A DNA stretch of 64,000 nt from Candidatus Moraniibacteriota bacterium (GTDB lineage: Bacteria; Patescibacteriota; Minisyncoccia; Moranbacterales; UBA1568). A program made the translations under genes and the position numbers. Position 1 is the stretch's first letter. Each line of letters opens with the position of its first letter. The DNA is taken from NCBI GenBank assembly GCA_016699875.1, contig CP064989.1, forward strand, positions 520,788 through 584,787, read 5' to 3'. The notes beneath the pieces were generated by a model. It was not told where the DNA came from. It saw nothing but the letters and a program-made list of their open reading frames with translations, and ran no database searches. Of this stretch, positions 13,329 through 43,056 are shown one piece after another.

Positions 13329-14024
13329 CTACCCACCCGTTCCAAAAAGGGCGTCGGTGGTACTGGCACAAAGCGATTGCGCCTTACACCGAATCATATA
13401 CCGCTTGAAGTGGCGGCCGACTTTGGTTTTCGGCGACTCGCCAGCAAGGACGCCGCGCACGTCAGTCACTTCCGCTTCGTTAAGCAGGCACGATCCAGAA
13501 TTTGCGCCTCTACTCCACGATCCCCAGCCCTCAAGAACATTGCCATTCTTGTCGAGCAAGAAGTTATACGAGGACTCGGATCCTCCTATACGGGCAACCG
13601 CCTGAGGGTGAGGTCTGTACGAACACGTACCCTTGGCGAAGCAGACTTGGGGCATTGCCTTCCGTGCCATCCGGGCACGATAGTCAATGATCCCTTGCAC
13701 CACCGGGATGTGGCCGAGTTGGTTTACTATTTCTGCCCAAATCGCCTCATCGGCGATTTGACCGTGGGTATCGTCGCAGATACTCACATACTCCTTCTGG
13801 AGTTTCTCCACCTCAAACGCCCTCCTGTCCACAAAACAACCTCCCAACCTTTCACGGGGGTTCAGCCAATTCCACCGACCGTTCAGGAGAAAGAATACAT
13901 GGTACCTGGTGGTACCAAATCCGTTTTCATCCGTGGCGAAGACGAGATTGTCCACAGGGACGACATCGCCAATAACAAACCTCTCCGACATGGGCTGGAC
14001 TACCGCTATACAAAACCTATTTTG
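13329..14024 (-). CDS. Hypothetical protein
   Basis: MKAQNRFCIAVVQPMSERFVIGDVVPVDNLVFATDENGFGTTRYHVFF...; protein-like composition, chosen over the fully overlapping plus-strand 226-aa ORF; the C-terminal ~60 aa are low-complexity and may be over-extension. Confidence 0.4.
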   Translation of the reverse strand, partial: QNRFCIAVVQPMSERFVIGDVVPVDNLVFATDENGFGTTRYHVFFLLNGRWNWLNPRERLGGCFVDRRAFEVEKLQKEYVSICDDTHGQIADEAIWAEIVNQLGHIPVVQGIIDYRARMARKAMPQVCFAKGTCSYRPHPQAVARIGGSESSYNFLLDKNGNVLEGWGSWSRGANSGSCLLNEAEVTDVRGVLAGESPKTKVGRHFKRYMIRCKAQSLCASTTDALFGTGG

Positions 14025-14393
14025 AGCTTTCATGATAACCCCCTTAAGAGGTGTTGAGCATAGTTCCGTGCTTATCAGGCACGAGCGGTCTGAGCCACTT
14101 TCGTGGCGGTCTGAATTTTCGCACCGATACTGCCAAGCGCGTTTCTGTTCACGTTTTTCACGAATAATCTGAATCAGAAATGCACTCAGCAATTCAATTT
14201 GAAAACCCAGTGCCATACTTCAAAGAACTTTCCTATCCCGCACGCCGTACTCATGGTGCGGGATCACTCTACTGACCAAGAAGCACTTGCTTCCCTGTCA
14301 GATAAAGCGGGAGAGTTTGTACCGAAGTACTCTCCCAAGCTCCAACCTATTTGTTCAGTCCCATCGATCGGTCACACCGACGAGACTTTTGAA

Positions 14394-26390: not shown

Positions 26391-28856
26391 CTACAACACC
26401 GTGAACGATGCTACTCCATCGCCGGATTGCGGACGCATAACGCGGACACCTTGGGTGACGCGGGAGAGAAGCGGGACACTTTTCAAAGGAATGCGGATGA
26501 TTGTGCCCTTTCTCGAGGTCGCCATGAGGTCGCATTCGGAAATATCATCCTTATGTACCACCTCCGCACCGACAAGCTTGCCAATTTTCGGCGTCACTTT
26601 AGCGGTTTTCATACCGCTTCCGCCGCGATGCTGGAGCTTGTAGTGCTTGAGATCCGTGCGCTTCCCAAAGCCACTCCCCGAAAGAATGATGAGTTCGAGA
26701 TCCTTTCCCTCCGCACGCACCACATTCATGCCGACCACCTTGTCGGACGCGGCGAGTTTGATACCGCGCACGCCGCCGGCATTTCGCCCCATCGGGCGCA
26801 CATCGCTTTCTTTAAAGCGAATCGCCTGCCCTTCGCTCGTCGTAAAGATGATATGGTCAGAACCGGTCGTTGGCGCCACCCACCCGAGCATATCTCCCTT
26901 TTCAAGGTTGATAGTAATAAGCCCGCTTCGACGCACCGTCTCATAGTCTTCAAGCTTCGTTTTCTTGATCGTGCCCTGTTCGGTTGCCATGAAGAGATAC
27001 TTGTAGTTGTCATCTTTGTTGAAGGCAATAAGCGCGGTAATGCGCTCTTCCGGCGACATTTGAAGGAAATTCACGATCGCCTGCCCCTTCGCTGTGCGCG
27101 ACGATTCGGGTATTTCATACGCTTTGGTCTGGAACACCTTGCCGGTATCGGTAAAAAACATGAGGTTGTCATGTGTCATAATGCCGAGCACCTTGGCAAT
27201 CGCATCGCCCTCATTTGTCGTTGCACCGATTACCCCCTTGCCGCCGCGCTTTTGCACGCGATACACATCCGGATTCATGCGCTTCACATAGCCATCTTGG
27301 GAAAGAGTGATGATTGCCTCCTCATTCGGAATGAGATCTTCCTGCTTAAACTCGCCGATACCCGAACGAACCACCTTCGTCTTGCGTCCATCACCATACT
27401 TCGCCTTAAGGTCAAGCAGCTCACCCTTAACCAGCTTCATCAGCTTCGTCCGACTCCCCAAGAGATCCTCAAGTTCGGCAATAAGCTTTCGCTTCTCGGC
27501 AAGCTCGTCTTCGATTTTCTTGCGTTCGAGTCCGGCAAGCGTCTGGAGCCGCATTTCGAGGATTGCATCCGTTTGCCGATCCGAAAGGCGAAAATTCTTC
27601 ATGAGGCGCGTCTTTGCTGTTTCCTTGTCCGGAGACTTCTTGATAATGGCGATCACCTCGTCTATATGATCCAGCGCCGTTTTAAGCCCCTCGAGGATAT
27701 GCGCGCGATCTTTCGCTTTCTCAAGCTCAAACCGAGTCCGCCGCGTCACCACGATCTCACGATGCGCAACGAACTGCTCGAGAATCGACTTCAGATTCAG
27801 CACCTGCGGCTCGATACCGTTTACCAGTGCCAACATGTTCATGTTGAAATTCTTCTGGAAATCCGTGAGCGAGTAGAGCTTGTTGAGCACCTTCTGCGGA
27901 AAGGCCTCTTTTTTCAGTTCAACCACGATGCGCACACCGTCTTTGTCGGATTCGTCGCGAAGATCCTTGATGCCCTGCAACTTTCCATCCTTCACCAATT
28001 CGGCGATTTTCTGTATCAGGGTCGATTTGTTGGTCAGATACGTGATTTCGGTCGCCACGATCTGGAACATACCCGCCTTCGTTTCGATAATTTCCGCCTT
28101 GGCACGCGTCGTAATTTTCCCGCGACCCGTCGCATAGGCCTCGCGTATATCTTTCGCATTGTAAATAATACCTCCCGTCGGAAAGTCCGGCCCCTTGATA
28201 AACTTCAAGAGATCTTCCGTGCTCGCTTCAGGAGTATCAATGAGGTGCGCAATACCGTCGACCAGCTCGGAAAGATTGTGCGGCGGAATATTAGTCGCCA
28301 TGCCGACGGCAATACCAACCGTGCCATTTGCAAGCAGCTGCGGCAATTTCGCCGGCAACACCACCGGCTCCTTGTGCATACCGTCAAAATTCGGGATGAA
28401 GTCCACCGTGTCTTTTTCGATATCAAAGAGCATTTCTTCGGCTATCGGGGAAAGTTTCGCCTCCGTATAACGATACGCCGCCGGAGAGTCTCCGTCCATA
28501 GAACCGAAGTTCCCCTGTCCCCACACGAGCGGATAGCGAAGAGAGAAGTCCTGCGCCATACGCACCATGGTGTCGTAAACCGCCGTATCGCCATGCGGAT
28601 GGTATTTCCCCAGCACTTCTCCGACAACCGTCGCCGATTTGCGAAATTTCGCGCTCGACTTAAGCCCCGTAGACCACATGGAGTAGAGAATGCGGCGATG
28701 CACCGGCTTCATTCCATCGCGCACATCGGGGAGTGCGCGCGACACAATCACGCTCATCGCATAATCAAGGTATGATTTCCGCACTTCGTCCGTAATCGGC
28801 TGCAGGTGAATATGATCTTCCGGCGTCATCACGCTTTCAACAGCATTTTTCTTCAT
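26391..28856 (-). CDS. gyrA: DNA gyrase subunit A
   Basis: AAMRYTE active-site Tyr motif, QRRGGKG C-terminal beta-pinwheel repeats; 821 aa. Confidence 0.95.
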
Positions 28857-28923: not shown

Positions 28924-29382
28924 TTATTCTTTTCCCGAACCAGCGCCGTCTGCCACAGAAGCAGGCGCTTCCGGCACTGCCGCTGCATTACTGCCACCGG
29001 AAAAATCGCCACCGACATCACTCGCATCGCCCTCCGATGAAATCCCGTTTGCCGGCAAAAAATCCGTCGTTTCGGGAGTTGATGGCTTCAGAGATTCACT
29101 CGGGAGCTGTTCCGCAGTCTCCTGAAGCGATTTTCCGGTCTTAAGGAGGTCTTCCAGAGAAACCGGCGCTGATTCCTGAATATTTTGAGCACTTTCCCGG
29201 AGAGTACCGACAGCATCGCCAACATCATTGTTGAGCAGCGTACCGAAAGATGCTTTCAAGGAAAACGCCCAGAGAGCCGCCACAAACACAAAAGAGATGC
29301 CAACCGAAAAAAACAAATACCGCACACGAACCGCTTCCGGTTTCTGCCGCATACGTTCAAATGCCGAAGCGAGAGATCCCAT
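28924..29382 (-). CDS. Hypothetical membrane-anchored protein
   Basis: Start at MGSLAS (ATG 29380-29382); one TM helix (FFSVGISFVFVAALWAF) then acidic Ser/Glu-rich ectodomain. Confidence 0.5.
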   Translation of the reverse strand: MGSLASAFERMRQKPEAVRVRYLFFSVGISFVFVAALWAFSLKASFGTLLNNDVGDAVGTLRESAQNIQESAPVSLEDLLKTGKSLQETAEQLPSESLKPSTPETTDFLPANGISSEGDASDVGGDFSGGSNAAAVPEAPASVADGAGSGKE

Positions 29383-29465
29383 ACAATTTGTATATTTGCG
29401 AAAATACGACCCCTTCCCAACAAACACCGAAGAAAAGCTCTCAAAACTATCTCCTCAAACACCAG

Positions 29466-30116
29466 CTACGCCCGCTCAAAGAGCACTACTTCCATATTCT
29501 TCCCATCGAGATCTTTTTTCTTGAATGTCAGTTTGGAAACCGTCGACTCCGGACAATTTCCAATCTCCTTGCAAAACACCTGTTCATCTTCACTCTCTGT
29601 CTCAAACCCCGGGAAACGGTAGTGCATCGGCACCACGATCGCCGGCTCGATTTTTCGCACCAATTCATCGACATGCTTCACGATCAGCGTATCCTTATTC
29701 CCCACCGGGACAAACAAGACGTCGACATGCCCTATCTTTTCCACAATGCCAAGCGGCAGCTCATGCCCCAAGGCGCCCATATGGCAGAGAGTGACATCCT
29801 CGCTCTGCAAGACAAATATCGTATTCTTCCCGCGCAGCGCACCGGAGTCCTCATCGCGAAACGAAGGAAATCCAAGTACGGATATTCCTCGAACATCGTA
29901 CTCGCCCGGACAGTCAAGAAGCAGTGCTTCATCCGATATATCGCGATCTTTTTCACTCACGTGCGTCTTGATCGTCACATCCGCTTGACCCTGCGGCGCA
30001 CGAAGACCCGAGTCTTTTTCACACGGATCGATCACCACTACCACATCGTCCGTTGCGCGACCACCGGGCTTTGTTGTTATTTTAAAGCAAAAATCTCCGT
30101 AGTACTGAATATTCAT
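29466..30116 (-). CDS. MBL-fold metallo-hydrolase
   Basis: MNIQYYGDFCFKI start typical of UlaG/YtkL-like beta-lactamase-fold hydrolases; His/Asp metal motifs (HMGALGH..., DVLFVPVG). Confidence 0.75.
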   Translation of the reverse strand: MNIQYYGDFCFKITTKPGGRATDDVVVVIDPCEKDSGLRAPQGQADVTIKTHVSEKDRDISDEALLLDCPGEYDVRGISVLGFPSFRDEDSGALRGKNTIFVLQSEDVTLCHMGALGHELPLGIVEKIGHVDVLFVPVGNKDTLIVKHVDELVRKIEPAIVVPMHYRFPGFETESEDEQVFCKEIGNCPESTVSKLTFKKKDLDGKNMEVVLFERA

Positions 30117-30319
30117 AGAAAGTTGCCACAAGAAACCTCTGAGAGAAAAATTTCTCAGCGCTCTCCCAGAGTATCACGAGATTTTCTCCTTGTCGAGACG
30201 GATTTTTCCATATCTCCTCGACACTGTTGACGAAATGGGAAATATCTTTTAGAGTGGCTAGTACGGATACGAAGCCCCTTACTCGGGTGGTTTTTCTTTC
30301 TTGGCATAACGCTACCGAT

Positions 30320-30936: not shown

Positions 30937-31001
30937 GAAGAGAAAAAGCCTGGGAGAAACCCTTGGCTTTTTCTTTATTTCTGCTATTCTTTGTTGCAGA
31001 A

Positions 31002-31078
31002 CGGACGATTAGCTCAGTTGGTTAGAGCGCCTCGTTTACACCGAGGAGGCCGCTGGTTCGAGTCCAGCATCGTCCACC
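31002..31078 (+). tRNA. tRNA-Val (anticodon TAC)
   Basis: Acceptor GGACGAT/ATCGTCC, anticodon loop ttTACac, T-loop TTCGAGT, encoded CCA. Confidence 0.88.
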
Positions 31079-31239
31079 AAGCTATTTGATTGATAGGCAC
31101 TTCTCTGATACAGTGTGAGAGCCAATGAACGCAATAGCGTGCGTTTTTGAGTTTTATATGCCGAGGTAGCTCTCCGCCAGCTGGCGAAGGGAGAGCAAGA
31201 GAATTTTGCAGATCATTGATCCAAGATTAAATCAAACAT

Positions 31240-31314
31240 GCCGAGGTAGCTCAGTGGTAGAGCAGAAGACTGAAAATCTTCGTGTCGGGAGTTCGATTCT
31301 CCCCCTCGGCACCA
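31240..31314 (+). tRNA. tRNA-Phe (anticodon GAA)
   Basis: Acceptor GCCGAGG/CCTCGGC, anticodon loop ctGAAaa, T-loop TTCGATT, encoded CCA. Confidence 0.88.
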
Positions 31315-31351
31315 TTTTTCTCAAGTATACGGAACACTTCCCTGAAAAACT

Positions 31352-32074
31352 ATGAGAGGAAACTTCGATATATCAAGTGTCCCAAAAGACGGATATCTCA
31401 TATTCCCCCTTTCCATGAGCCGTCTTGCAAACGCCCAATCAGGACAAGGGCTGTATGATTTTTTGGTCTACTTCGAAAGCAAAATTAAATACATCTCTAT
31501 AGATTGCATCCTTCTTTATACAAACGACCTATACCTCAACAGCAACGAGCAGGCAGTCGCTGTTCGTAGACGTTCTTTACATCAGATGCTCGGACATAAA
31601 GGTGAGTTCAAAAACATCCTTCTCAAAGAACGACGATATGTACCACAAGCATTTCACTTTCTACCATGGGATTATGGAACCCTCAACGCCGAAGGCTTTA
31701 CCGAAGCAAAAAATTTACTTCTTCATATTGCCAAAAACAATGACGATTTCCAAAAATGCCTCCTGAATGACCTTCGAAATCAAGGGCGAGAGGAGTCCGA
31801 TATAAACATTGGTTTTCTAATAGAAGAAATCGCTGTCACTTGTATGCTCACTAGAGGTGACATACCCCTCCCACATATTCTCGCCACCGAAAACGGCTGG
31901 CGACTCATTTGCTACCCTGGCAATCCAATAAGTTCCCTAGTTTACACGTACAAGAACAATTTGTTGCAAGATAAAACCAAACCATCAAAAGATAGCCACT
32001 TATTTTCTCGATCGTTTTACAATATGGAGAAGAAGATTTTGATCGACTTTGATACCGCTGAAATTTCACAGTAA
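31352..32074 (+). CDS. Hypothetical protein (AT-rich, tRNA-flanked accessory gene)
   Basis: 240-aa ORF between tRNA-Phe and tRNA-Met; low GC, no SD recognised, no known domain. Confidence 0.45.
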   Translation: MRGNFDISSVPKDGYLIFPLSMSRLANAQSGQGLYDFLVYFESKIKYISIDCILLYTNDLYLNSNEQAVAVRRRSLHQMLGHKGEFKNILLKERRYVPQAFHFLPWDYGTLNAEGFTEAKNLLLHIAKNNDDFQKCLLNDLRNQGREESDINIGFLIEEIAVTCMLTRGDIPLPHILATENGWRLICYPGNPISSLVYTYKNNLLQDKTKPSKDSHLFSRSFYNMEKKILIDFDTAEISQ

Positions 32075-32130
32075 GCTAATTCACTAAGCAAATCTCATCA
32101 GGGTAGACTTAATAAGTCCACACCACCCAA

Positions 32131-32202
32131 GGGACCGTAGCTCAGCGGTAGAGCAGGGGACTCATAATCTCTTGGTCGCTGGTTCGAATCCAGCCGGTCC
32201 CA
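32131..32202 (+). tRNA. tRNA-Met/Ile2 (anticodon CAT), elongator type
   Basis: Fully paired 1:72 G-C acceptor (not initiator), anticodon loop ctCATaa, T-loop TTCGAAT. Confidence 0.75.
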
Positions 32203-32313
32203 CAGAGGATTGCAAAGAGGCACTTTTTTCGCTAGTATTCCTCCTAGAACATCATGCTGCGCCGGGAAGTTAGCGCATGAGACGGGTTTGCCCGCCGGAG
32301 CAGCAGAACACAA

Positions 32314-32385
32314 GCGGGTATCGTATAGCGGCTATTATGTAACCTTGCCAAGGTTAAGATACGGGTTCGACTCCCGTTACCCGCT
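32314..32385 (+). tRNA. tRNA-Gly (anticodon GCC)
   Basis: Acceptor GCGGGTA/TACCCGC, anticodon stem taacc/ggtta with loop ttGCCaa, T-loop TTCGACT. Confidence 0.78.
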
Positions 32386-32390
32386 CAGGT

Positions 32391-32433
32391 AATTAAAATC
32401 ACCTCAATTGAGGTGATTTTAAGTTTTTCGATT
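32391..32433 (+). terminator. Intrinsic terminator after tRNA-Gly (also the first copy of the att-like duplicated sequence)
   Basis: aatcacctc-aatt-gaggtgatt perfect hairpin followed by ttaagttttt. Confidence 0.65.
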
Positions 32434-32445
32434 ATACTTGTTCTT

Positions 32446-32970
32446 ATGGGTACACCTCAAAAGCCAGGTAAGCAAACTTGGATATCTGAGAAAATCGAAA
32501 TTCAAAACTCTCCTATTGGCGGCAGAGGTATGTTTGCAGTCGAGAAAATCAACAAAAATGAATCGGTACTGGTATGGGGTGGGGAGTATGTGAAGAGTGA
32601 ACAAGCACAAAAAGCAAAAAATAAAGAGAAGCTCGTCATGCAGTGGGATGACGAGCTCTACAGTATCGAAGACCGAGGTGATGACCAGGGATATTTCCTT
32701 AATCATTCTTGTGATCCGAATGTCTGGATGAGTGATGCTTATACGCTTATTGCCAGACGTGACATCAGAGTTGGAGAAGAGGTAACGGCCGACTATGTCC
32801 TGTGGGAAGCTGATGAAAATAAAGTATCAAAATGGGAGTGTTACTGTGGCGCTACAGGGTGCCGTAAGCGGGTAACAGGAAAAGATTGGCAGATACCAGA
32901 ACTTCAGGCAAAATATCGTGGACATTTTTCACCACTGCTTAATAAGCGGATTTCTGCAATGCATTTCTAA
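32446..32970 (+). CDS. SET-domain protein (putative protein-lysine methyltransferase)
   Basis: GRGMFA N-SET start, NHSCDPN pseudoknot motif, DY catalytic Tyr region, post-SET Cys cluster CYCGATGCRKR. Confidence 0.8.
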   Translation: MGTPQKPGKQTWISEKIEIQNSPIGGRGMFAVEKINKNESVLVWGGEYVKSEQAQKAKNKEKLVMQWDDELYSIEDRGDDQGYFLNHSCDPNVWMSDAYTLIARRDIRVGEEVTADYVLWEADENKVSKWECYCGATGCRKRVTGKDWQIPELQAKYRGHFSPLLNKRISAMHF

Positions 32971-32986
32971 CCGCGTGTGCCAGCCA

Positions 32987-33033
32987 GCTCAGGTTAATTA
33001 ATTTAAAATAAGCCTCAAAGGGCTGATTTTAAA
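32987..33033. repeat. Diverged duplicate of the tRNA-Gly 3' flank/terminator (gctcaggttaattaa...gcctcaaagggctgatttta), att-like
   Basis: ~70% identical over 45 nt to 32383-32423; brackets the SET gene as a direct repeat. Confidence 0.6.
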
Positions 33034-33081
33034 TTACAGTGAAATGGGTTTATTACTAACAAACACATTAAACGTACTATA

Positions 33082-33504
33082 ATGGCTTTTTACAATAAGA
33101 TAGGACTGCTCGTCCTCAATAAAGAAAGAACTAAATTTCTGGTTTGCGAAAAAGACAAGAATAACGTAACAAACGACTATATAATGCCCGGTGGACAGTT
33201 TTTTGAAGATTCCATCGAGGAGTGCTTAAAAAATGAAATCAAAGAGGAGTTAGACTGCGAAATTAACTTCAATACCTTGCAGTTTATTGGTGAGTACATC
33301 GATATTGCGGCAGGAGTTCCTACCAAAGAGGTCTCCATACAACTCTACCAGGGTGACTTAATAGGCGATCCAACCCCCTCTTCCGAAATTAAATTTGTAC
33401 ATTGGGTTGGAAAAAATGACGCAAGCAACACACGACTATCTCCAATTGTTAAGAACAAGATAATCCCAGATCTACTGAAAAGATCAATATTAAAGCCAGA
33501 GTAA
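33082..33504 (+). CDS. NUDIX hydrolase
   Basis: Nudix box GGQFFEDSIEECLKNEIKEELD (GX5EX7REUXEEXGU pattern). Confidence 0.8.
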   Translation: MAFYNKIGLLVLNKERTKFLVCEKDKNNVTNDYIMPGGQFFEDSIEECLKNEIKEELDCEINFNTLQFIGEYIDIAAGVPTKEVSIQLYQGDLIGDPTPSSEIKFVHWVGKNDASNTRLSPIVKNKIIPDLLKRSILKPE

Positions 33505-33542
33505 ACCCCTTCTCTGCTAGGGGCTTCATTTTTTCTTACACG

Positions 33543-33797
33543 CAAATCAATGCAAGGATTTGTACATATACACTGTCTGCACAACGACCAATAGCGAAAG
33601 GTGAAGAAATAACTGCCGATTATTCCCTTTGGGAGGCAAATGAAGACAAAATATCCGCATGGGAGTGCCACTGTCAATCAAAAAACTGTCGCAAGAGAAT
33701 AACCGGAAAGGACTGGTATATTCCCAAGCTGCAAACAGAATACCGGAACCATTTCTCTCCGCTTCTCAACAGCAGAATTGCGCATCAAAGCATATGA
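33543..33797 (+). pseudogene. 3'-terminal remnant of a second SET-domain gene (no start codon, degraded NHSC motif)
   Basis: Frame reads ...INARICTYTLSAQRPIAKGEEITADYSLWEANEDKISAWECHCQSKNCRKRITGKDWYIPKLQTEYRNHFSPLLNSRIAHQSI*, colinear with C-terminus of the 32446-32970 protein. Confidence 0.6.
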
Positions 33798-34825
33798 ACA
33801 ACAAAAATATATTCTTAGCGCCCGGAGCCGGTCAATACGTAAAGAATTATGAGATCGGCGATGGCGCTGATATTTGGCTTGGACAAGAAACCATTCCAAT
33901 AGACAATCCGCATTGCTTTATTGGACACAGCTTGGGAGTAAATTTCCTCTTGAGCAAGAAAATCAATACCGCTTGCACGCTCATCTGCGTCAATCCTCTT
34001 GTAAAGAAGCGCGCGCTTTTCTCGCTCTTCATTCGTTGGATAAAATTCCTTCTCTTTGAAGGTATACCCAAAGAAAAACTCGTGCCTCTCGCCTATTGGC
34101 CAAGCAATATCAAGAAGGCTTTGCAATTACTCAAAATAGACACGCTCCACGAACTCCAGAGGTTTCCGAAAGAAAATATCAGCATTATCAGAGGAACGGA
34201 AGACAAATACTTTTGCACCACAGATGACGTAGCTGTATTGAAGAATCACGGATTTACCGTATTCGAGGTGCCCGCCGGGCATGATTGGAATGAAAACATC
34301 AAGAACACTGTTGCCAGCATTCTCCAAGAACGTGCAATTCACAACGAAAGCACCCCTTCTTCATCCATCCCTTCATCCCAAAGAAGCTGTGATACAATAA
34401 AAGAAAGTAAACGTCTCATGCTTATGAACGACCCGGCACCTGAACTCTCCGCAGAACAGCGAAAAGTCTGCCTGATAGACGATGAGGCGGATGTTCGCGA
34501 AATGTATACCATTGCCCTCACTGCAGAGGGTTTTGATGTGATTTCCGCAGACAATGGCGATACCGGACTCGCACTTATCCGAGCCGAGCACCCCGATATC
34601 ATCCTCCTTGATCTGCAAATGCCCGTCTCCGACGGATTCGATGTACTCACATCACTGTCCACTAACAAAGATATTGCCAAAATTCCCGTTATTATCCTCA
34701 GCAACACCGACAACGAAGAAGCCTTCAAAAAGGTCGGGACATTCAATACACGGTTTTTTCTCGTAAAAGCCCTCACAACCCCAAAGAAAGTCGCCGGCAT
34801 CGTACGAGAAGTCTTCATGGAATAG
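33794..34825 (+). CDS. Alpha/beta-hydrolase-like (GHSLG) domain fused to a C-terminal response-regulator receiver (REC) domain
   Basis: N-terminal ~200 aa with nucleophile-elbow GHSLG; C-terminal KVCLIDDEADVREMYT...DIILLDLQMPVSDGFDVL...IPVIILSN = CheY-like receiver with phospho-acceptor Asp; start at MNNKNIF because upstream part of six-frame ORF is the SET remnant in another frame. Confidence 0.7.
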   Translation: MNNKNIFLAPGAGQYVKNYEIGDGADIWLGQETIPIDNPHCFIGHSLGVNFLLSKKINTACTLICVNPLVKKRALFSLFIRWIKFLLFEGIPKEKLVPLAYWPSNIKKALQLLKIDTLHELQRFPKENISIIRGTEDKYFCTTDDVAVLKNHGFTVFEVPAGHDWNENIKNTVASILQERAIHNESTPSSSIPSSQRSCDTIKESKRLMLMNDPAPELSAEQRKVCLIDDEADVREMYTIALTAEGFDVISADNGDTGLALIRAEHPDIILLDLQMPVSDGFDVLTSLSTNKDIAKIPVIILSNTDNEEAFKKVGTFNTRFFLVKALTTPKKVAGIVREVFME

Positions 34826-35105
34826 CATTCAGGCACTCCCGTCGAGATATTCCTTCCTCAATCCCCACGATAGTGGGGATTTTCCGTTGAAAGAAACCGG
34901 CAAATACAGTATGAAGATACAAGAAATTGCTCAAAATAGAGAAAAATATCAAGCGTCAAACATGCCAACGACTATTGACTATATTCTATAAATATGCTAG
35001 TATAGGCAGTCGGGTCCGTTACGGACAAGACACCGGATACAGGGCTAAATTAAGGGAAAAGTTCTTCGAAAACACGGTATCCGGACTAACCAGTAAAGGA
35101 ACTCT

Positions 35106-39253: not shown

Positions 39254-39503
39254 AGACCGAGCCAAAAACCAAAGAATTGCAGTATATCAATCCATCAAAA
39301 ATATATCAAGCAGGTGAAACCGATTCGTTGCAGAGCCAGTATGCAATCGCATGTCGGCAGATAAGAATGCCTTGTGAGTGCCCCCAGTATGAATCGAACA
39401 TACATCGCTCCCTTAGGACGGGACCGTTCTATCCGTTGAACTATAGGGGCCGAAGATTCAATACAAAAAGAGCCTGTGAAACATTGTTTCACGCCATGCA
39501 CAG

Positions 39504-39576
39504 TGGACCGTAGGAGACTCGAACTCCTCACCTCCTCCATGCCATGGAGGCGCTCTACCAGATGAGCTAACGGCCC
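39504..39576 (-). tRNA. tRNA-Ala (anticodon GGC)
   Basis: G3:U70 identity pair present, anticodon loop atGGCat, T-loop TTCGAGT. Confidence 0.85.
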
Positions 39577-39833
39577 AACAAGCAAACACTTTTGTGGAGA
39601 TACCCACATCTTTTCCACAAAGAGCGTTCTACACAATAAGATGAGAGTATCGTACCATGTTTTAGCCCTCAGTCAAACAAATCAAACACTCTCTTTCGCA
39701 ACATTTCGAAAGCACCCCATTCATTACAGAAAAGAACAAGCGAATTAAGCGCCATCCCTCTGAAAAAAACAGCTACTTAGGATGGTAGAAATCCGTCTTA
39801 ATACACTCCTCCGCGCAAACATCTGTTTCAATA

Positions 39834-41544
39834 GTTCCACATGGAACATATTAGAGCTCTTCGACATTCAGAATCTCCACACAAAGAAGTTTCATGTGCA
39901 ACAAAGCTTTATCAAAAGAATAATATCCATTCCAAAAAATTCCTTGTTTTCCACGCCATGTACCGGTGTGCCCTCAGCAATGCTACATTAATTACCAGCA
40001 AGATCTACTCGTACTTTTTATAAACACACCCAACAGAATATACAAAACGTTCCACAAGGAACATGAGCCACCTCGTACAGACATAGGTAGACTGATTCAC
40101 GTGAAACATTTTGGCAAGCATACATTACATACTGTCATTGTTCCACAAGGAATAAGTAAATACCCCCTATTACACCTAGTGAAGAAATATATCTCAGAGA
40201 ATCCAACAAAAAATACAAAGTTTTTATTATAGACATCTTTAAAGTTCCGATTCATCTTTCCGTCCAAGAATTCCATAATACCACCACAAAATTGTTCCAC
40301 GTGAAAAATAATATGCCATGAGAAACATCGAGAAAATAAAACTACTCAATAAGTTCCACATGGAATACTGTCCGCAGTCGACATGCTTACCAACATTACT
40401 TATACAGATACATTTGGACTGGTTCGTTATGCAAGAACAATTATTGTTCCACGTGGAAATCAAAAATCGGGATACCACTAAGAGACATGAAAAAGCATGT
40501 TCCATGTGAATCAGACAAGCGAGATAAGAAAACAAATACCAACTGAGACAAGCCGCGACTCGAATGCAATGCCGCTTAATAACTAAAAATTTCGCTGACA
40601 AGAGTTCTGCTAATTATCAATATGATTCAGTGACAATAAAAACGTTGCACGTGAAACGCTGTGTATAGTTAAACAACAGGTCTGACAAAATGCTTGTTCC
40701 ACATGGAGCAATCCGGTTGCTCGAAAACGGAAATTAGACAAAAATACCTACACTTGTATGCATACAAAAACAGCCTACCGGACAACAGTATCTATACAAA
40801 AAAACACCCCCCGGGAGAATAATCCAAAAAAAAAAAAAAAAAACCAAAGGATATATACTAATAATCGTGGTCAGATATGTTCCACAAGGAACTTGTAATT
40901 CAGATACCTGAATATACTGCTCCACATGAAACAATAACGAAGATCATCACGAAACAGACAGCAAACAAAATATCGAAAAATTCCTACAAAAAATTCACCT
41001 AAAGGGAGTTACAATAGCAACAAGCAGCTCAATATAATGACTTCACCAAAATCAATACAAAAGAAATAGTTGTTCCACATGAAACAACGGGGAATATAAC
41101 CAATACAGCCACTTAAAACCCAGAGATATACAGGGCGTGGAATTGCTTTCATAACACAGCGAAAGAACAGAAGAATACAGTCAATGATCTACATACTTTC
41201 TGCATTGCTCAAGAAAGATAATTTCAGCGCACTGTATATACAATATACATACGCAGTGGAACTTACAAAAAGCAATTATTAAGGCGATCTTAACGTGAGG
41301 AGCGTTAATCTCAGATAATTCCATGTGAAACAAAATGAAAAATGTTCCACGCGCAACAATAACACCCGCTCAAAAAGCTTTATTTCAAGATCTATCGAGC
41401 AATCTCGTGGCAACAAAGCAGAGCAATAGAGTGCCCATGTATGGCGATTCAGAGACTACGCCACATGAATACACCAATAAAGAAATCTTTGATTTTAATA
41501 CTCCCGCTATACTCGCAAGTATATAAAATGTTCCACGTGAAACT
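39834..41544. repeat. Array of ~16 parS-like 16-bp palindromes (TGTTCCACGTGAAACA family) in a gene-free AT-rich region
   Basis: Sites (core coordinates): 39834, 39889, 40049, 40096, 40140, 40293, 40352, 40445, 40498, 40643, 40696, 40879, 40918, 41071, 41317, 41343, 41529; several within 1 mismatch of consensus. Confidence 0.8.
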
Positions 41545-42000
41545 ATTCGCGTGATTCTCAGAGAAATACGTGAAACATGCGAACAGAAAAACCGCGAGAT
41601 CATTGTCATCACCGGTCCAATTTAAATCCAACAATATCAACTCTTTGAAGAGAGATGGTTTGCCTTCAAAGGCTTGTAGCTGCTTTATCAATGCGGAAGA
41701 AGTCCTTTATCCAGACATTACACTGAGAGAATGCGATAGGAACAATATTTTCACTCACTACCATAGCAGTCACCAAAAAAACACATCGGCAGTGAAAATT
41801 ACACATAGTAAACTAAGAAAAGACACAAAAAAATCCTTCAGACAAACGCCCGCCACAAATTACAGCGAATCTCTGCAATCCGCGACACTCACCATTAAAT
41901 CATTCCAAAAATTTCTTCATCTATATTTGACACGTCAGGGAAAAGTTTTTTTTGAATAAAGTGTGGTATACTGCACAGTGATATTCTACTTCGATATCAT

Positions 42001-43056
42001 ATGTCGAGATTTCTTTCCTTTTTGATACCAGCGGAAAGGCTTCGCCTGCCTGTTTTTGTGTTTTTCATACTTGTTTTTTCCAGTTTCAGTTTCTTCTCTT
42101 TCGCTTCCGATAATTTTTCCGGAAACAGTATCTTTCAAGATAGCGACCAAGACGGGCTCACAAATGACGAGGAACAACTCTATGAAACAGACCCACAAAA
42201 AGCGGATACTGATGGAGACGGCTACAGTGATGGAGCGGAAGTGCGCAGCGGATACGATCCGCTCAAGCCATCACCGGGCGACAAGATATTTACCGTGAAG
42301 GATGCGGCGACAATTGGAAATGCACCCTCAATAAAAGAAACTCTCGCTGCTTCAACAACAAAAACAGAAGCCGGTGTCGGAGGTTCCGATGAAGATAACC
42401 TCACCACGCAAGTCTCGCAGCAGATCGCCAACATCCTCAAAAGTTCCTCCGATGATACCTCGGATACATCTATTTCTGTCCAAGATATGCAGGCAAGCCT
42501 GCAAGAACTCCTCGATAAAAACGGGGCAGACACAGTACAGCTTCCGGAAATCGACGAGTCGACCATCAAAGTACTAAAACAAAATTACGACGATCTTTCC
42601 GATGAGGAGCAAAAAGCAAAAATAAAACAAGATACACTCGAATATATCACCAAAATATCATACATACTCGCAAGCAACTCTCCGGAAATCATTACAACGC
42701 CGGAAGACATAGAAAGTATCGCGACCACAATAATGACCAGCACCATGACATCGATAGAGAGCGGCGATGCAACATATTTGAAAGACCTGAGCACAAAAGG
42801 AGAGAAAGCTCTCGAAGAACTTCAGGAGGTGAAAGTTCCGGAGAATATGCTTGAATCACACAAGAAAGCGCTGCAGCTCTTCCAGTACGCTTCATCACTT
42901 CCAGATGAACTCACTTCGTTCGAGACAGATCCGCTAGCAAATGTTGTCGTACTTTCAAAGATACAGGGGTTGCTTGGCTCTCTTTCAAGTTTTGTCAGCG
43001 ATGTAGATACCACATTGAAAGACCTCGGCATCGAGGAAATTCCTGTAAATCTCTAG
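42001..43056 (+). CDS. Secreted acidic protein with DxDGDG calcium-binding-type repeats
   Basis: Hydrophobic signal/anchor then DSDQDGLTNDEEQ...DTDGDGYSDGAE (thrombospondin-type-3/dockerin-like Asp-rich repeats); very acidic. Confidence 0.6.
   Translation: MSRFLSFLIPAERLRLPVFVFFILVFSSFSFFSFASDNFSGNSIFQDSDQDGLTNDEEQLYETDPQKADTDGDGYSDGAEVRSGYDPLKPSPGDKIFTVKDAATIGNAPSIKETLAASTTKTEAGVGGSDEDNLTTQVSQQIANILKSSSDDTSDTSISVQDMQASLQELLDKNGADTVQLPEIDESTIKVLKQNYDDLSDEEQKAKIKQDTLEYITKISYILASNSPEIITTPEDIESIATTIMTSTMTSIESGDATYLKDLSTKGEKALEELQEVKVPENMLESHKKALQLFQYASSLPDELTSFETDPLANVVVLSKIQGLLGSLSSFVSDVDTTLKDLGIEEIPVNL

What the first reader, a model, noticed from the sequence alone, without database searches (positions are those of the whole stretch)
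39834..41544. Dense array of ~16 parS-like ParB-binding palindromes in a 1.7-kb gene desert
Between tRNA-Ala and the next credible gene (42001) is ~2.4 kb of AT-rich DNA with no protein-like ORF. It contains at least 16 copies of a 14-16-bp palindrome of the form TGTTCCAC(G/A)TGGAACA. Examples: 40293 TGTTCCACGTGAAAAA, 41529 TGTTCCACGTGAAACT, 41071 TGTTCCACATGAAACA, 40445 TGTTCCACGTGGAAAT, 40643 CGTTGCACGTGAAACG, 40096 TTCACGTGAAACA, plus GTTCCACAAGGAAC variants at 40049, 40140 and 40879. This matches the broadly conserved chromosomal centromere site parS (consensus 5'-TGTTNCACGTGAAACA-3') bound by ParB/Spo0J. Chromosomes normally carry one to about ten dispersed parS sites, frequently inside genes. 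Sixteen sites tiled every 40-150 bp in non-coding DNA is the architecture of plasmid or phage centromeres or of a ParB nucleation/spreading platform, and I am not aware of it being a standard chromosomal arrangement. An 18-nt poly(A) run (40826-40843) sits in the middle. No parA/parB is in the window. Alternative reading: TGTTCCACA also resembles a degenerate DnaA box (TTATCCACA), so this could be, or be adjacent to, oriC.
Basis: partly seen in the sequence, partly recalled or inferred. Interest (0 to 1): 0.88.

Follow-up and report, generated by a model that had tools for sequence, protein, structure and literature searches.

The report
Chromosomal parS centromere array in Moranbacteria
A 1.7-kb non-coding stretch of a tiny uncultured bacterium's chromosome holds 17 degenerate copies of the canonical centromere site parS, and in related species the same array sits in frame inside a membrane-protein gene that has decayed here.

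Summary
Seventeen 16-mers within 3 mismatches of TGTTNCACGTGNAACA lie at 39833-41544, and only one weak match lies elsewhere in the 64 kb. The window is a Candidatus Moraniibacteriota (CPR/Patescibacteria) chromosome. The array sits between tRNA-Ala(ggc) and a TSP3-repeat gene.

It is not oriC: there is no GC-skew switch, no DnaA-box enrichment and no dnaA. It is not phage or plasmid DNA, and it is not a regular tandem repeat.

The array is syntenic in relatives. Against CP064974.1, 15 of 17 sites are orthologous. Identity is 80% within sites and 45% in spacers, so the sites are under selection.

In more distant relatives the same locus holds a Wzy_C/O-antigen-ligase gene with 9-17 perfect TGTTCCACGTGGAACA copies. 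These are read in all three frames and lie in disordered loops. In the window's clade that gene is gone and only the sites remain. One contig (L214) has 16 perfect sites in 800 non-coding bp with the same synteny.

In three related CPR contigs the cluster lies 0.3-2 kb from dnaA, and in one genome 55 kb from it.

Best reading: a ParB-loading centromere array. No ParB gene could be located, so binding is inferred. Dense chromosomal arrays are already known (Myxococcus: 22 sites in 3 kb).

The parts
39833..41544 (.). Array of 17 degenerate parS palindromes. Consensus TGTTCCAC(G/A)TG(A/G)AACA, spacing 26-246 bp, non-coding, GC 0.37.
   Evidence: Fifteen of 17 sites are orthologous to sites in CP064974.1.
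39833..39848 (.). site AGTTCCACATGGAACA (2 mismatches)
39888..39903 (.). site AGTTTCATGTGCAACA (2 mismatches)
40048..40063 (.). site CGTTCCACAAGGAACA (3 mismatches, CACAAG centre)
40093..40108 (.). site TGATTCACGTGAAACA (1 mismatch)
40139..40154 (.). site TGTTCCACAAGGAATA (3 mismatches)
40293..40308 (.). site TGTTCCACGTGAAAAA (1 mismatch)
40352..40367 (.). site AGTTCCACATGGAATA (3 mismatches)
40445..40460 (.). site TGTTCCACGTGGAAAT (2 mismatches)
40498..40513 (.). site TGTTCCATGTGAATCA (2 mismatches)
40643..40658 (.). site CGTTGCACGTGAAACG (2 mismatches)
40695..40710 (.). site TGTTCCACATGGAGCA (2 mismatches)
40878..40893 (.). site TGTTCCACAAGGAACT (3 mismatches)
40918..40933 (.). site TGCTCCACATGAAACA (2 mismatches)
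41071..41086 (.). site TGTTCCACATGAAACA (1 mismatch)
41317..41332 (.). site AATTCCATGTGAAACA (3 mismatches)
41343..41358 (.). site TGTTCCACGCGCAACA (1 mismatch)
41529..41544 (.). site TGTTCCACGTGAAACT (1 mismatch)
39577..42000 (+). Non-coding 'desert' in the syntenic position and orientation of the Wzy_C/O-antigen-ligase gene that hosts the array in relatives. Inferred to be a fully eroded pseudogene.
   Evidence: Synteny UDG-nrnA-rbfA-[Wzy_C]-TSP3-unk-unk-ftsH-tilS in L133, L008, L148 and L210. No residual similarity with a Wzy profile HMM. 28-43 stops per frame.
39503..39576 (-). tRNA-Ala(ggc), the left boundary. The same tRNA flanks the array or gene in L173 and L214.
39378..39450 (-). tRNA-Arg(cct), a conserved neighbour
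39649..39676 (-). Sigma-70-like promoter (TTGACT-16-TACGAT with TG) upstream of tRNA-Ala, inside a sequence block conserved with L002.
42001..43056 (+). TSP3-repeat secreted protein gene, the right boundary. It is the conserved downstream neighbour of the array or Wzy_C gene in all relatives.
40826..40843 (+). Poly(A)18 run inside the array. It is the only tandem repeat detected, and no function is assigned to it.

Best explanation
The region is the chromosomal centromere of this Moraniibacteriota genome. It is a cluster of about 17 parS sites at which dimers of a canonical ParB/Spo0J CTPase would load, close into clamps and slide onto flanking DNA. Many sites packed into 1.7 kb raise the local loading rate, so a dense ParB partition complex can form for ParA-driven segregation and/or SMC loading.

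Historically the array lived inside the loops of a Wzy_C/O-antigen-ligase gene at this same locus, and it still does in many related CPR lineages. In the window's clade the host gene decayed completely and the DNA sites were kept, in relaxed and imperfect form.

Shown here:
- motif identity with parS;
- confinement to one locus within the sequences examined;
- synteny with relatives;
- selection on the sites but not on the spacers;
- a DNA-level constraint, because the same 16-mer is read in three frames;
- origin-proximal position in relatives.

Inferred:
- ParB binding, clamp loading and a segregation role;
- the direction of evolution from gene-embedded to non-coding.
For: Motif:
- Enrichment is 14 matches against 0.09 expected, and 17 of the 18 window sites are in the array.
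- The consensus equals the optimal B. subtilis parS.

Conservation:
- Syntenic arrays occur in CP064974.1 (20 sites), L006 (17), L008 (17 perfect) and L214 (16 perfect in 800 non-coding bp).
- Window against L002: 15 of 17 sites are orthologous, with 80% identity in sites and 45% in spacers.

Gene-embedded relatives:
- All 9-17 sites are exact TGTTCCACGTGGAACA (one locus also has N-position variants, and one site has 1 mismatch).
- All three reading frames are used, and none lies outside the gene in about 20 kb.
- All 120 listed homologues carry 1-18 translated palindromes.
- These peptides lie in hydrophilic loops with low pLDDT (about 50, against 82 elsewhere) of a WaaL-like fold.

General link of such clusters to partition genes:
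- 62 of 120 metagenome loci with a triple perfect parS cluster encode ParA and/or ParB within a few kb.

Origin proximity in CPR relatives:
- The cluster is 1.7 kb (L173), about 0.3 kb (L137) and about 1.4 kb (L227) from dnaA.
- It is 55 kb from dnaA in GCA_030645735.1.

Literature: more parS sites give a higher ParB clamp loading rate and more stable condensation (PMC8299390).
Against: - No ParB or ParA gene was found in the window. None was found in 357 kb of related CPR loci either, including four dnaA neighbourhoods. So whether this genome has a cognate ParB is untested.
- None of the 17 window sites is perfect, and 5 have 3 mismatches, some with CACAAG or CACATG centres. Relatives have perfect sites, so affinity here may be low.
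- The distance to oriC in this genome is unknown. There is no dnaA and no skew switch within 40 kb to the left or 22 kb to the right.
- The alignment used for the site-versus-spacer contrast is anchored by the motifs themselves.
Confidence: 0.75

Rival explanations
1. Decaying relic. The array was a working centromere in the ancestor, but in this clade it is no longer used, because ParB was lost or the centromere moved. On this reading it is drifting to extinction together with its host gene.
For: There are no perfect sites here, while essentially all sites are perfect in L008, L130-L133 and L214. The host gene is completely eroded. No ParB was found.
Against: Spacers between the window and CP064974.1 are saturated at 45% identity. 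Yet 15 of 17 sites are still aligned and 80% identical, and each of three diverged genomes keeps 17-20 recognisable sites. Neutral decay should have erased them at the same rate as the spacers.
Confidence: 0.12
2. The palindromes are bound by a protein other than ParB, such as a Noc-like ParB paralogue or an unrelated dimeric regulator, or they act as a DNA structural element.
For: ParB was not located. In the CPR-type loci no parAB lies beside the array, unlike about half of the other metagenome loci.
Against: The 16-mer is identical to canonical parS across all specified positions. A different protein converging on that exact site is unlikely. The cluster sits next to dnaA in three CPR contigs, as expected for parS.
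Confidence: 0.07
3. Replication origin: the half-site TGTTCCACA acts as a degenerate DnaA box cluster.
For: The DNA is AT-rich and non-coding, and the half-site resembles TTATCCACA at 7 of 9 positions.
Against: GC skew stays negative across the whole window with no switch. DnaA boxes at up to 1 mismatch number 14 against 11.2 expected, with none inside the array. No dnaA or dnaN is in the window. Both palindrome halves are conserved, and in relatives the sites are inside an ORF. A separate classical rpmH-rnpA-yidC-jag | dnaA-dnaN origin region exists in a relative.
Confidence: 0.02
4. A dispersed or mobile palindromic repeat (REP/MITE-like), an RNA-level element (terminator hairpins), or a guide-RNA array (CRISPR/TIGR-like).
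For: Some palindromes followed by T-runs score as terminator-like on the - strand, 9 found against 1.9 expected. TIGR arrays occur in CPR (PMC12045711).
Against: The repeat is confined to one locus in 64 kb and in every 20-kb relative locus. There is no regular period, no Rfam hit and no Tas or Cas gene nearby. Sites are orthologous between species rather than variable spacers. The T-runs follow from the T-rich - strand.
Confidence: 0.03

Closest known systems
Myxococcus xanthus chromosomal parS cluster (Iniesta 2014, PMC3899335; Harms 2013)
   Same: A dense chromosomal array of 22 (24) near-consensus parS in about 3 kb, with consensus TGTTCCACGTGGAACG. It is origin-proximal and is shown to bind ParB in vitro.
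   Different: The Myxococcus array lies 4 kb upstream of parAB in a 9-Mb genome. Here no parAB lies within 22-40 kb, the genome is about 1.1 Mb (CPR), the density is slightly higher (17 in 1.7 kb), the sites are degenerate, and the array descends from, or is shared with, a gene-embedded form.
Canonical dispersed chromosomal parS (Bacillus subtilis, Streptomyces coelicolor, Corynebacterium glutamicum, Pseudomonas aeruginosa; Livny 2007 as summarised in PMC7333895)
   Same: The same 16-bp palindrome. Sites are often inside genes. One to about 23 sites occur per genome near oriC.
   Different: Those sites are spread over tens to hundreds of kb, usually one per gene. Here 17 sites lie in 1.7 kb, and relatives have up to 17-18 in one ORF.
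Plasmid tandem centromeres (F sopC with 12 x 43-bp repeats, P1 parS) - own knowledge
   Same: Many ParB-type binding sites are packed into under 2 kb of non-coding DNA.
   Different: Those are regular tandem units with a different sequence, on plasmids or phages. Here spacing is irregular (26-246 bp), TRF finds no period, the site is the chromosomal parS, and the context is chromosomal with no plasmid or phage match.
Uncultured-bacteria parS arrays found here (L181, L241, L201, L166, L155)
   Same: 13-23 perfect or near-perfect parS within 2 kb.
   Different: They directly flank soj, spo0J or dnaA. The CPR arrays do not.
Rickettsia palindromic elements inserted in frame into ORFs - own knowledge, analogy only
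   Same: A palindromic DNA element is tolerated in frame within protein-coding genes, and is therefore translated.
   Different: RPEs are about 100-150 bp and dispersed over many genes. Here a 16-bp protein-binding site is multiplied within one gene.

Membership tests
Chromosomal parS centromere (ParABS system) | 16-bp palindrome matching TGTTNCACGTGNAACA | tested here: met
   17 sites at up to 3 mismatches, 12 at up to 2, 6 at 1. Relatives at the same locus have perfect TGTTCCACGTGGAACA.
Chromosomal parS centromere (ParABS system) | Sites concentrated at one locus rather than spread through the genome | tested here: inconclusive
   Met within the 64-kb window (17 of 18 sites) and in all 20-kb relative loci (0 outside). 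A whole-genome count was not possible.
Chromosomal parS centromere (ParABS system) | Origin-proximal position | tested here: inconclusive
   Neither dnaA nor a skew switch is in the window. In CPR relatives the cluster is 0.3-2 kb (L137, L227, L173) or 55 kb (GCA_030645735.1) from dnaA.
Chromosomal parS centromere (ParABS system) | Cognate ParB (ParBc N-domain plus HTH) encoded in the genome | not testable with these tools
   It is not in the window, nor in 357 kb of related loci.
Chromosomal parS centromere (ParABS system) | ParB binding, CTP-dependent loading and spreading at the sites | not testable with these tools
   Needs an experiment (EMSA, ChIP-seq).
Chromosomal parS centromere (ParABS system) | Purifying selection on the DNA sites | tested here: met
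   80% identity in sites against 45% in spacers, with 15 of 17 sites orthologous. The exact 16-mer is kept in three reading frames. It is retained after loss of the host ORF.
oriC / DnaA-box cluster | Enrichment of DnaA boxes, a GC-skew switch, and adjacency to dnaA/dnaN | tested here: not met
   Boxes number 14 against 11.2 expected, with none inside the array. Skew is negative throughout. There is no dnaA.
Plasmid/phage tandem centromere (sopC-like) | Regular tandem repeat units on a mobile replicon | tested here: not met
   TRF finds only poly(A). The context is housekeeping genes. There is no plasmid or phage match, and 1 hit among 2.9 million viral contigs.
CRISPR / TIGR guide-RNA array | Regularly spaced repeats with variable spacers, plus an adjacent cas or tas gene | tested here: not met
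   Spacing is irregular at 26-246 bp. There are no such genes and no Rfam hit. The TIGR description is in PMC12045711.
Wzy_C / O-antigen ligase gene (as pseudogene in the window) | Residual protein-level similarity to the family | tested here: not met
   The profile HMM of 109 homologues scores 7 bits or less on the six-frame translation, and only through the palindrome peptides. tblastn is negative.
Wzy_C / O-antigen ligase gene (as pseudogene in the window) | Same genomic position and orientation as the intact gene in relatives | tested here: met
   L133, L008, L148 and L210 show UDG-nrnA-rbfA-[Wzy_C]-TSP3-unk-unk-ftsH-tilS. The window has the desert in that slot, upstream of and co-oriented with TSP3.

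The most novel reading that the evidence does not exclude
In Moranbacteria and related Parcubacteria, embedding the centromere in a membrane-protein ORF may itself be functional.

Neighbouring parS copies almost always shift the reading frame by +1 (459 of 545 neighbouring pairs, with the same frame in only 7 of 545). Any recombination that deletes or adds one or two repeat units would therefore frameshift the Wzy_C gene. On this reading, selection on the protein 'frame-locks' the array against repeat collapse. Co-translational membrane insertion of the Wzy_C product might also tether the centromere to the membrane.

The window's clade would then show what happens when the lock is lost. The ORF dies, the spacing loses the mod-3 rule, and the sites diverge from one another yet are still kept. 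The non-coding arrays in the window and in L214 do show random spacing mod 3 (arithmetic on the positions).
Probability: 0.15. Interest if true: 0.85.

Novelty: new variant of a known kind. Interest (0 to 1): 0.65.

Why it matters
parS copy number and clustering vary widely among bacteria. The field's own review asks why, given that a single site often suffices (PMC7333895).

This CPR clade offers a natural series at one orthologous locus:
- 9-17 perfect sites inside one ORF;
- 16 perfect sites in 800 non-coding bp;
- 17-20 degenerate sites in a dead gene.

That series lets one test what selection acts on: site number, site quality or spacing. It would also be, as far as the searched literature shows, the first description of a centromere in Patescibacteria. 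These are ultra-small, mostly uncultured cells whose chromosome segregation is uncharacterised. It also shows a protein-binding DNA array being translated in three frames as part of a conserved protein.

Tried and rejected
- Source genome. Looking up the window's own genome failed. Only a 2.7-kb Logan contig carries its rbfA, and P0001 is not indexed. No genome-wide motif count and no ParB or dnaA search was therefore possible.
- ParB. Several routes to a Moranbacteria ParB all failed: tblastn with remembered B. subtilis Spo0J, Soj and DnaA; profile HMMs from 37 ParB and 47 ParA metagenome sequences against 357 kb of CPR loci; contig look-ups around Wzy_C homologues and dnaA; and literature searches.
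- dnaA in the close relative. The DnaA homologue search did not return the CP064974.1 protein, so the array-to-dnaA distance in that genome is unknown.
- Genome-collection scan. It only showed that such pairs are common and that more than 8 sites per 2 kb is rare there.
- Rejected explanations: oriC; RNA family; tandem repeat; plasmid or phage origin; TIGR or CRISPR array (plus gene content); a DNA-binding role for the adjacent conserved proteins of 372 and 304 aa, which look secreted or membrane-bound; and residual Wzy coding in the window.
- The 'Wzy hit' in L214 was spurious, because it overlaps tRNA-Ala.
Full report
**Observation**

The sequence between 39833 and 41544 holds 17 sixteen-mers within three mismatches of the symmetric parS consensus TGTTNCACGTGNAACA. 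Six have one mismatch, twelve have two or fewer, and none is perfect. The remaining 62 kb of the window holds one weak match, at 27250.

The 2424-bp interval from tRNA-Ala(ggc) to the next gene at 42001 has GC 0.37, against 0.46-0.50 in the flanks. Each frame of it has 28-43 stop codons, and it has no Pfam or Rfam match.

On the + strand the left half is mostly GTTCCAC and the right half GTGAAAC. This is what the strand composition (GC skew -0.15, AT skew +0.25) would do to the two unconstrained positions. I do not read it as directionality.

**Organism and context**

The NrnA-like protein next to rbfA is 100% identical to a protein from a Candidatus Moraniibacteriota MAG on a 1,088,644-bp contig. 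The window carries housekeeping genes: infB, cca, class I RNR, gyrA, rpsA-like S1, ftsH, tilS, glmS, pnp and ksgA, plus 13 tRNAs.

Around the array the gene order is UDG, nrnA, rbfA, tRNA-Arg(cct), tRNA-Ala(ggc), then the array, then a TSP3-repeat secreted protein, two unknown secreted or membrane proteins, tRNA-Val(gac), ftsH and tilS.

**What it is not**

- Not oriC. GC skew is negative across all 64 kb. DnaA boxes are at chance level, 14 against 11.2, with none inside the array. No dnaA, parA or parB is encoded in the window.
- Not a regular tandem repeat.
- Not similar to any plasmid or phage record. A triple perfect-parS cluster occurs in only 1 of 2.9 million viral contigs.
- Not a CRISPR or TIGR array. 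The spacing is irregular and the associated genes are absent.

**Conservation**

The complete genome CP064974.1 (NrnA 89% identical) has 20 sites in the syntenic gap. A JGI contig (L006, 72% identical) has 17.

In a global alignment of the window and CP064974.1 gaps, 15 of 17 window sites fall on a site in the relative. Identity is 80% inside sites and 45% outside, which is saturation, and the spacing pattern is largely preserved. The aligner is helped by the motifs. Even so, 17-20 recognisable sites persist in each lineage while the spacers have randomised, and that argues for selection on the sites.

**The host gene**

In L008 (NrnA 59% identical) the same slot holds 17 perfect copies of TGTTCCACGTGGAACA. 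All of them lie inside one open 628-codon frame.

- That ORF belongs to the Wzy_C/O-antigen-ligase family. Its own Pfam match is weak.
- Its homologues carry PF04932.
- An AlphaFold model of homologue P0123 (pTM 0.78) has WaaL as its top PDB match.

All 120 listed homologues, from Moranbacteria and Parcubacteria, contain 1-18 translated palindromes, read as FHVE(H/Q), VPRGT or CSTWN depending on the frame. Retrieval is word-based and so is biased toward such proteins.

In the five DNA loci with an intact gene, the 9-17 sites are essentially all exact at the nucleotide level. They use all three frames, and none lies outside the gene in about 20 kb. The peptides fall in five hydrophilic loops of variable length between transmembrane blocks. 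A crude hydropathy prediction for the L008 protein puts most of them in K/R-rich loops. These loops have mean pLDDT about 50, against 82 elsewhere.

One exact 16-mer kept in three frames points to a constraint on the DNA, not on the protein.

**The window as a relic**

L133, L148 and L210 show UDG-nrnA-rbfA-[Wzy_C]-TSP3-unk-unk-ftsH-tilS. That is the window's order with the desert in place of the gene, and in the same orientation. A profile HMM of 109 family members finds nothing in the window, L002 or L006 gaps beyond the palindrome peptides.

The most parsimonious reading is in-situ decay of the gene with retention of the sites. My estimate for this is about 0.7, because no protein-level trace remains to prove it.

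A more distant contig, L214 (NrnA 47% identical), has identical synteny including the three tRNAs. It has 16 perfect sites in 800 non-coding bp. So the array can exist without the ORF, even in a lineage that keeps perfect sites.

**Position relative to the origin**

- In L173 the order is dnaN-dnaA-tRNA-Arg(cct)-...-tRNA-Ala(ggc)-Wzy_C/parS, with 1.7 kb between dnaA and the gene.
- In two further Parcubacteria-like contigs the cluster is about 0.3 kb and about 1.4 kb from dnaA.
- In GCA_030645735.1, dnaA and the parS-bearing gene are 55 kb apart on one contig.
- For the window's own genome the distance is unknown. It exceeds 22 kb on one side and 40 kb on the other.

**ParB**

I could not locate a ParB gene for this lineage (and the look-ups). 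The remembered B. subtilis queries do work. They find ParA and/or ParB in 62 of 120 metagenome loci that carry a triple perfect parS cluster, and they find DnaA in 12 of those loci. This also shows that such clusters are normally centromeres next to parAB. None of the CPR-type loci has parAB nearby, so the cognate protein must be encoded elsewhere, or be absent. This is the main gap in the argument.

**Mechanism**

This part is inferred from established ParB biology (PMC7333895, PMC8299390). ParB dimers recognise parS, bind CTP, close into clamps and slide away, which frees the site for the next dimer. More sites give a higher loading rate and a more stable condensed complex. In vitro, the condensation force rose from 7 to 13 to 26 sites. 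The complex is the cargo for ParA and the loading point for SMC. Seventeen sites in 1.7 kb would give a compact, high-flux loading platform.

The imperfect sites here probably bind more weakly than the perfect ones in relatives. The excess of CACATG over CATGTG centres (6 against 3) fits strand-biased C-to-T change at the central CpG.

**Comparison and novelty**

Dense chromosomal arrays are known. Myxococcus xanthus has 22 sites in 3 kb that bind ParB, and metagenome contigs show 13-23 sites per 2 kb flanking soj, spo0J or dnaA.

Several things appear to be undescribed in the searched literature:
- the CPR setting;
- the separation from parAB;
- the lineage-wide embedding of the array in frame in one membrane-protein gene;
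- its survival here after that gene died.

A further oddity is that neighbouring sites in the coding arrays almost always shift frame by +1, in 459 of 545 pairs, with the same frame in only 7 of 545. The non-coding arrays of the window and L214 show no such rule, by arithmetic on the positions. This suggests, but does not show, that the reading frame protects the array from repeat-mediated loss.

**Verdict**

This is a real feature and most likely a ParB-loading centromere array. It is a new variant of a known kind. Confidence is 0.75 and interest 0.65.

Noticed in passing
L008:7137-9023(-); proteins P0121-P0240; loci L130-L133, L148, L210: A Wzy_C/O-antigen-ligase family gene of Moranbacteria and Parcubacteria carries 1-18 exact parS palindromes in frame. 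They are translated as FHVE(H/Q), VPRGT or CSTWN, and they sit in disordered loops.
   Followed up: yes
proteins P0122-P0240; L008 spacings: Neighbouring palindromes inside the ORF shift the reading frame by +1 in 459 of 545 cases and share a frame in only 7 of 545. In L008 all 12 short spacings are congruent to 1 mod 3. The non-coding arrays (window, L214) show no such rule.
   Followed up: partly
L214:8113-8924: A metagenome contig with the same synteny as the window (tRNA-Val-gac, TSP3, tRNA-Ala-ggc, tRNA-Arg-cct, rbfA, nrnA, UDG) has 16 perfect parS in 800 bp of non-coding DNA.
   Followed up: yes
L181:12230-13979: A non-CPR metagenome contig has yidC, 5 parS, soj and then an 18-unit parS array of about 44 bp per unit. 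That is 23 sites in under 2 kb, 2.4 kb from dnaA. L241 and L201 (GC 0.64) have 16 sites in 1.6 kb directly upstream of soj-spo0J.
   Followed up: partly
window 39476-39492: GTGAAACAATGTTTCAC is the two parS half-sites in swapped order. It forms a hairpin followed by a T-run on the - strand, between tRNA-Ala and tRNA-Arg, and looks like a terminator or processing hairpin.
   Followed up: no
window 31000-35000 and 57000-59000: These are the only stretches where the otherwise uniform negative GC skew (-0.1 to -0.2) rises to about 0 or becomes positive. GC drops to 0.42-0.45 there. The first stretch holds ORFs without Pfam hits and a response-regulator protein. They may be acquired islands.
   Followed up: no
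window 1-64000: GC skew is strongly negative and AT skew positive on the + strand whatever the gene orientation. This implies that the whole window lies on one replichore, with the origin to the right. The dead Wzy_C gene and the intact one in GCA_030645735.1 would both be transcribed toward the origin, head-on to replication.
   Followed up: partly
window 13329-14216(-), 29250-30230(+), 31352-32074(+), 54702-56210(+): Four sizeable ORFs (240-502 aa) have no Pfam match.
   Followed up: no
window 39577-39680 and L002:8560-8660: A block upstream of tRNA-Ala is conserved between the window and CP064974.1. It includes a TTGACT-16-TACGAT promoter-like site and is the only conserved non-parS sequence in the gap.
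   Followed up: partly
L002:8726-9304: CP064974.1 has a Ser_hydrolase gene inserted between tRNA-Ala and tRNA-Arg, on the rbfA side of the array. The window lacks it, so there is local rearrangement beside a conserved array.
   Followed up: no
L254:1-21377 (GCA_030645735.1): A Moranbacterium has a classical origin region, rpmH-rnpA-yidC-jag | dnaA-dnaN. No parAB lies within 10 kb, and two parS-free Wzy_C paralogues sit in a polysaccharide cluster 5-8 kb away.
   Followed up: partly
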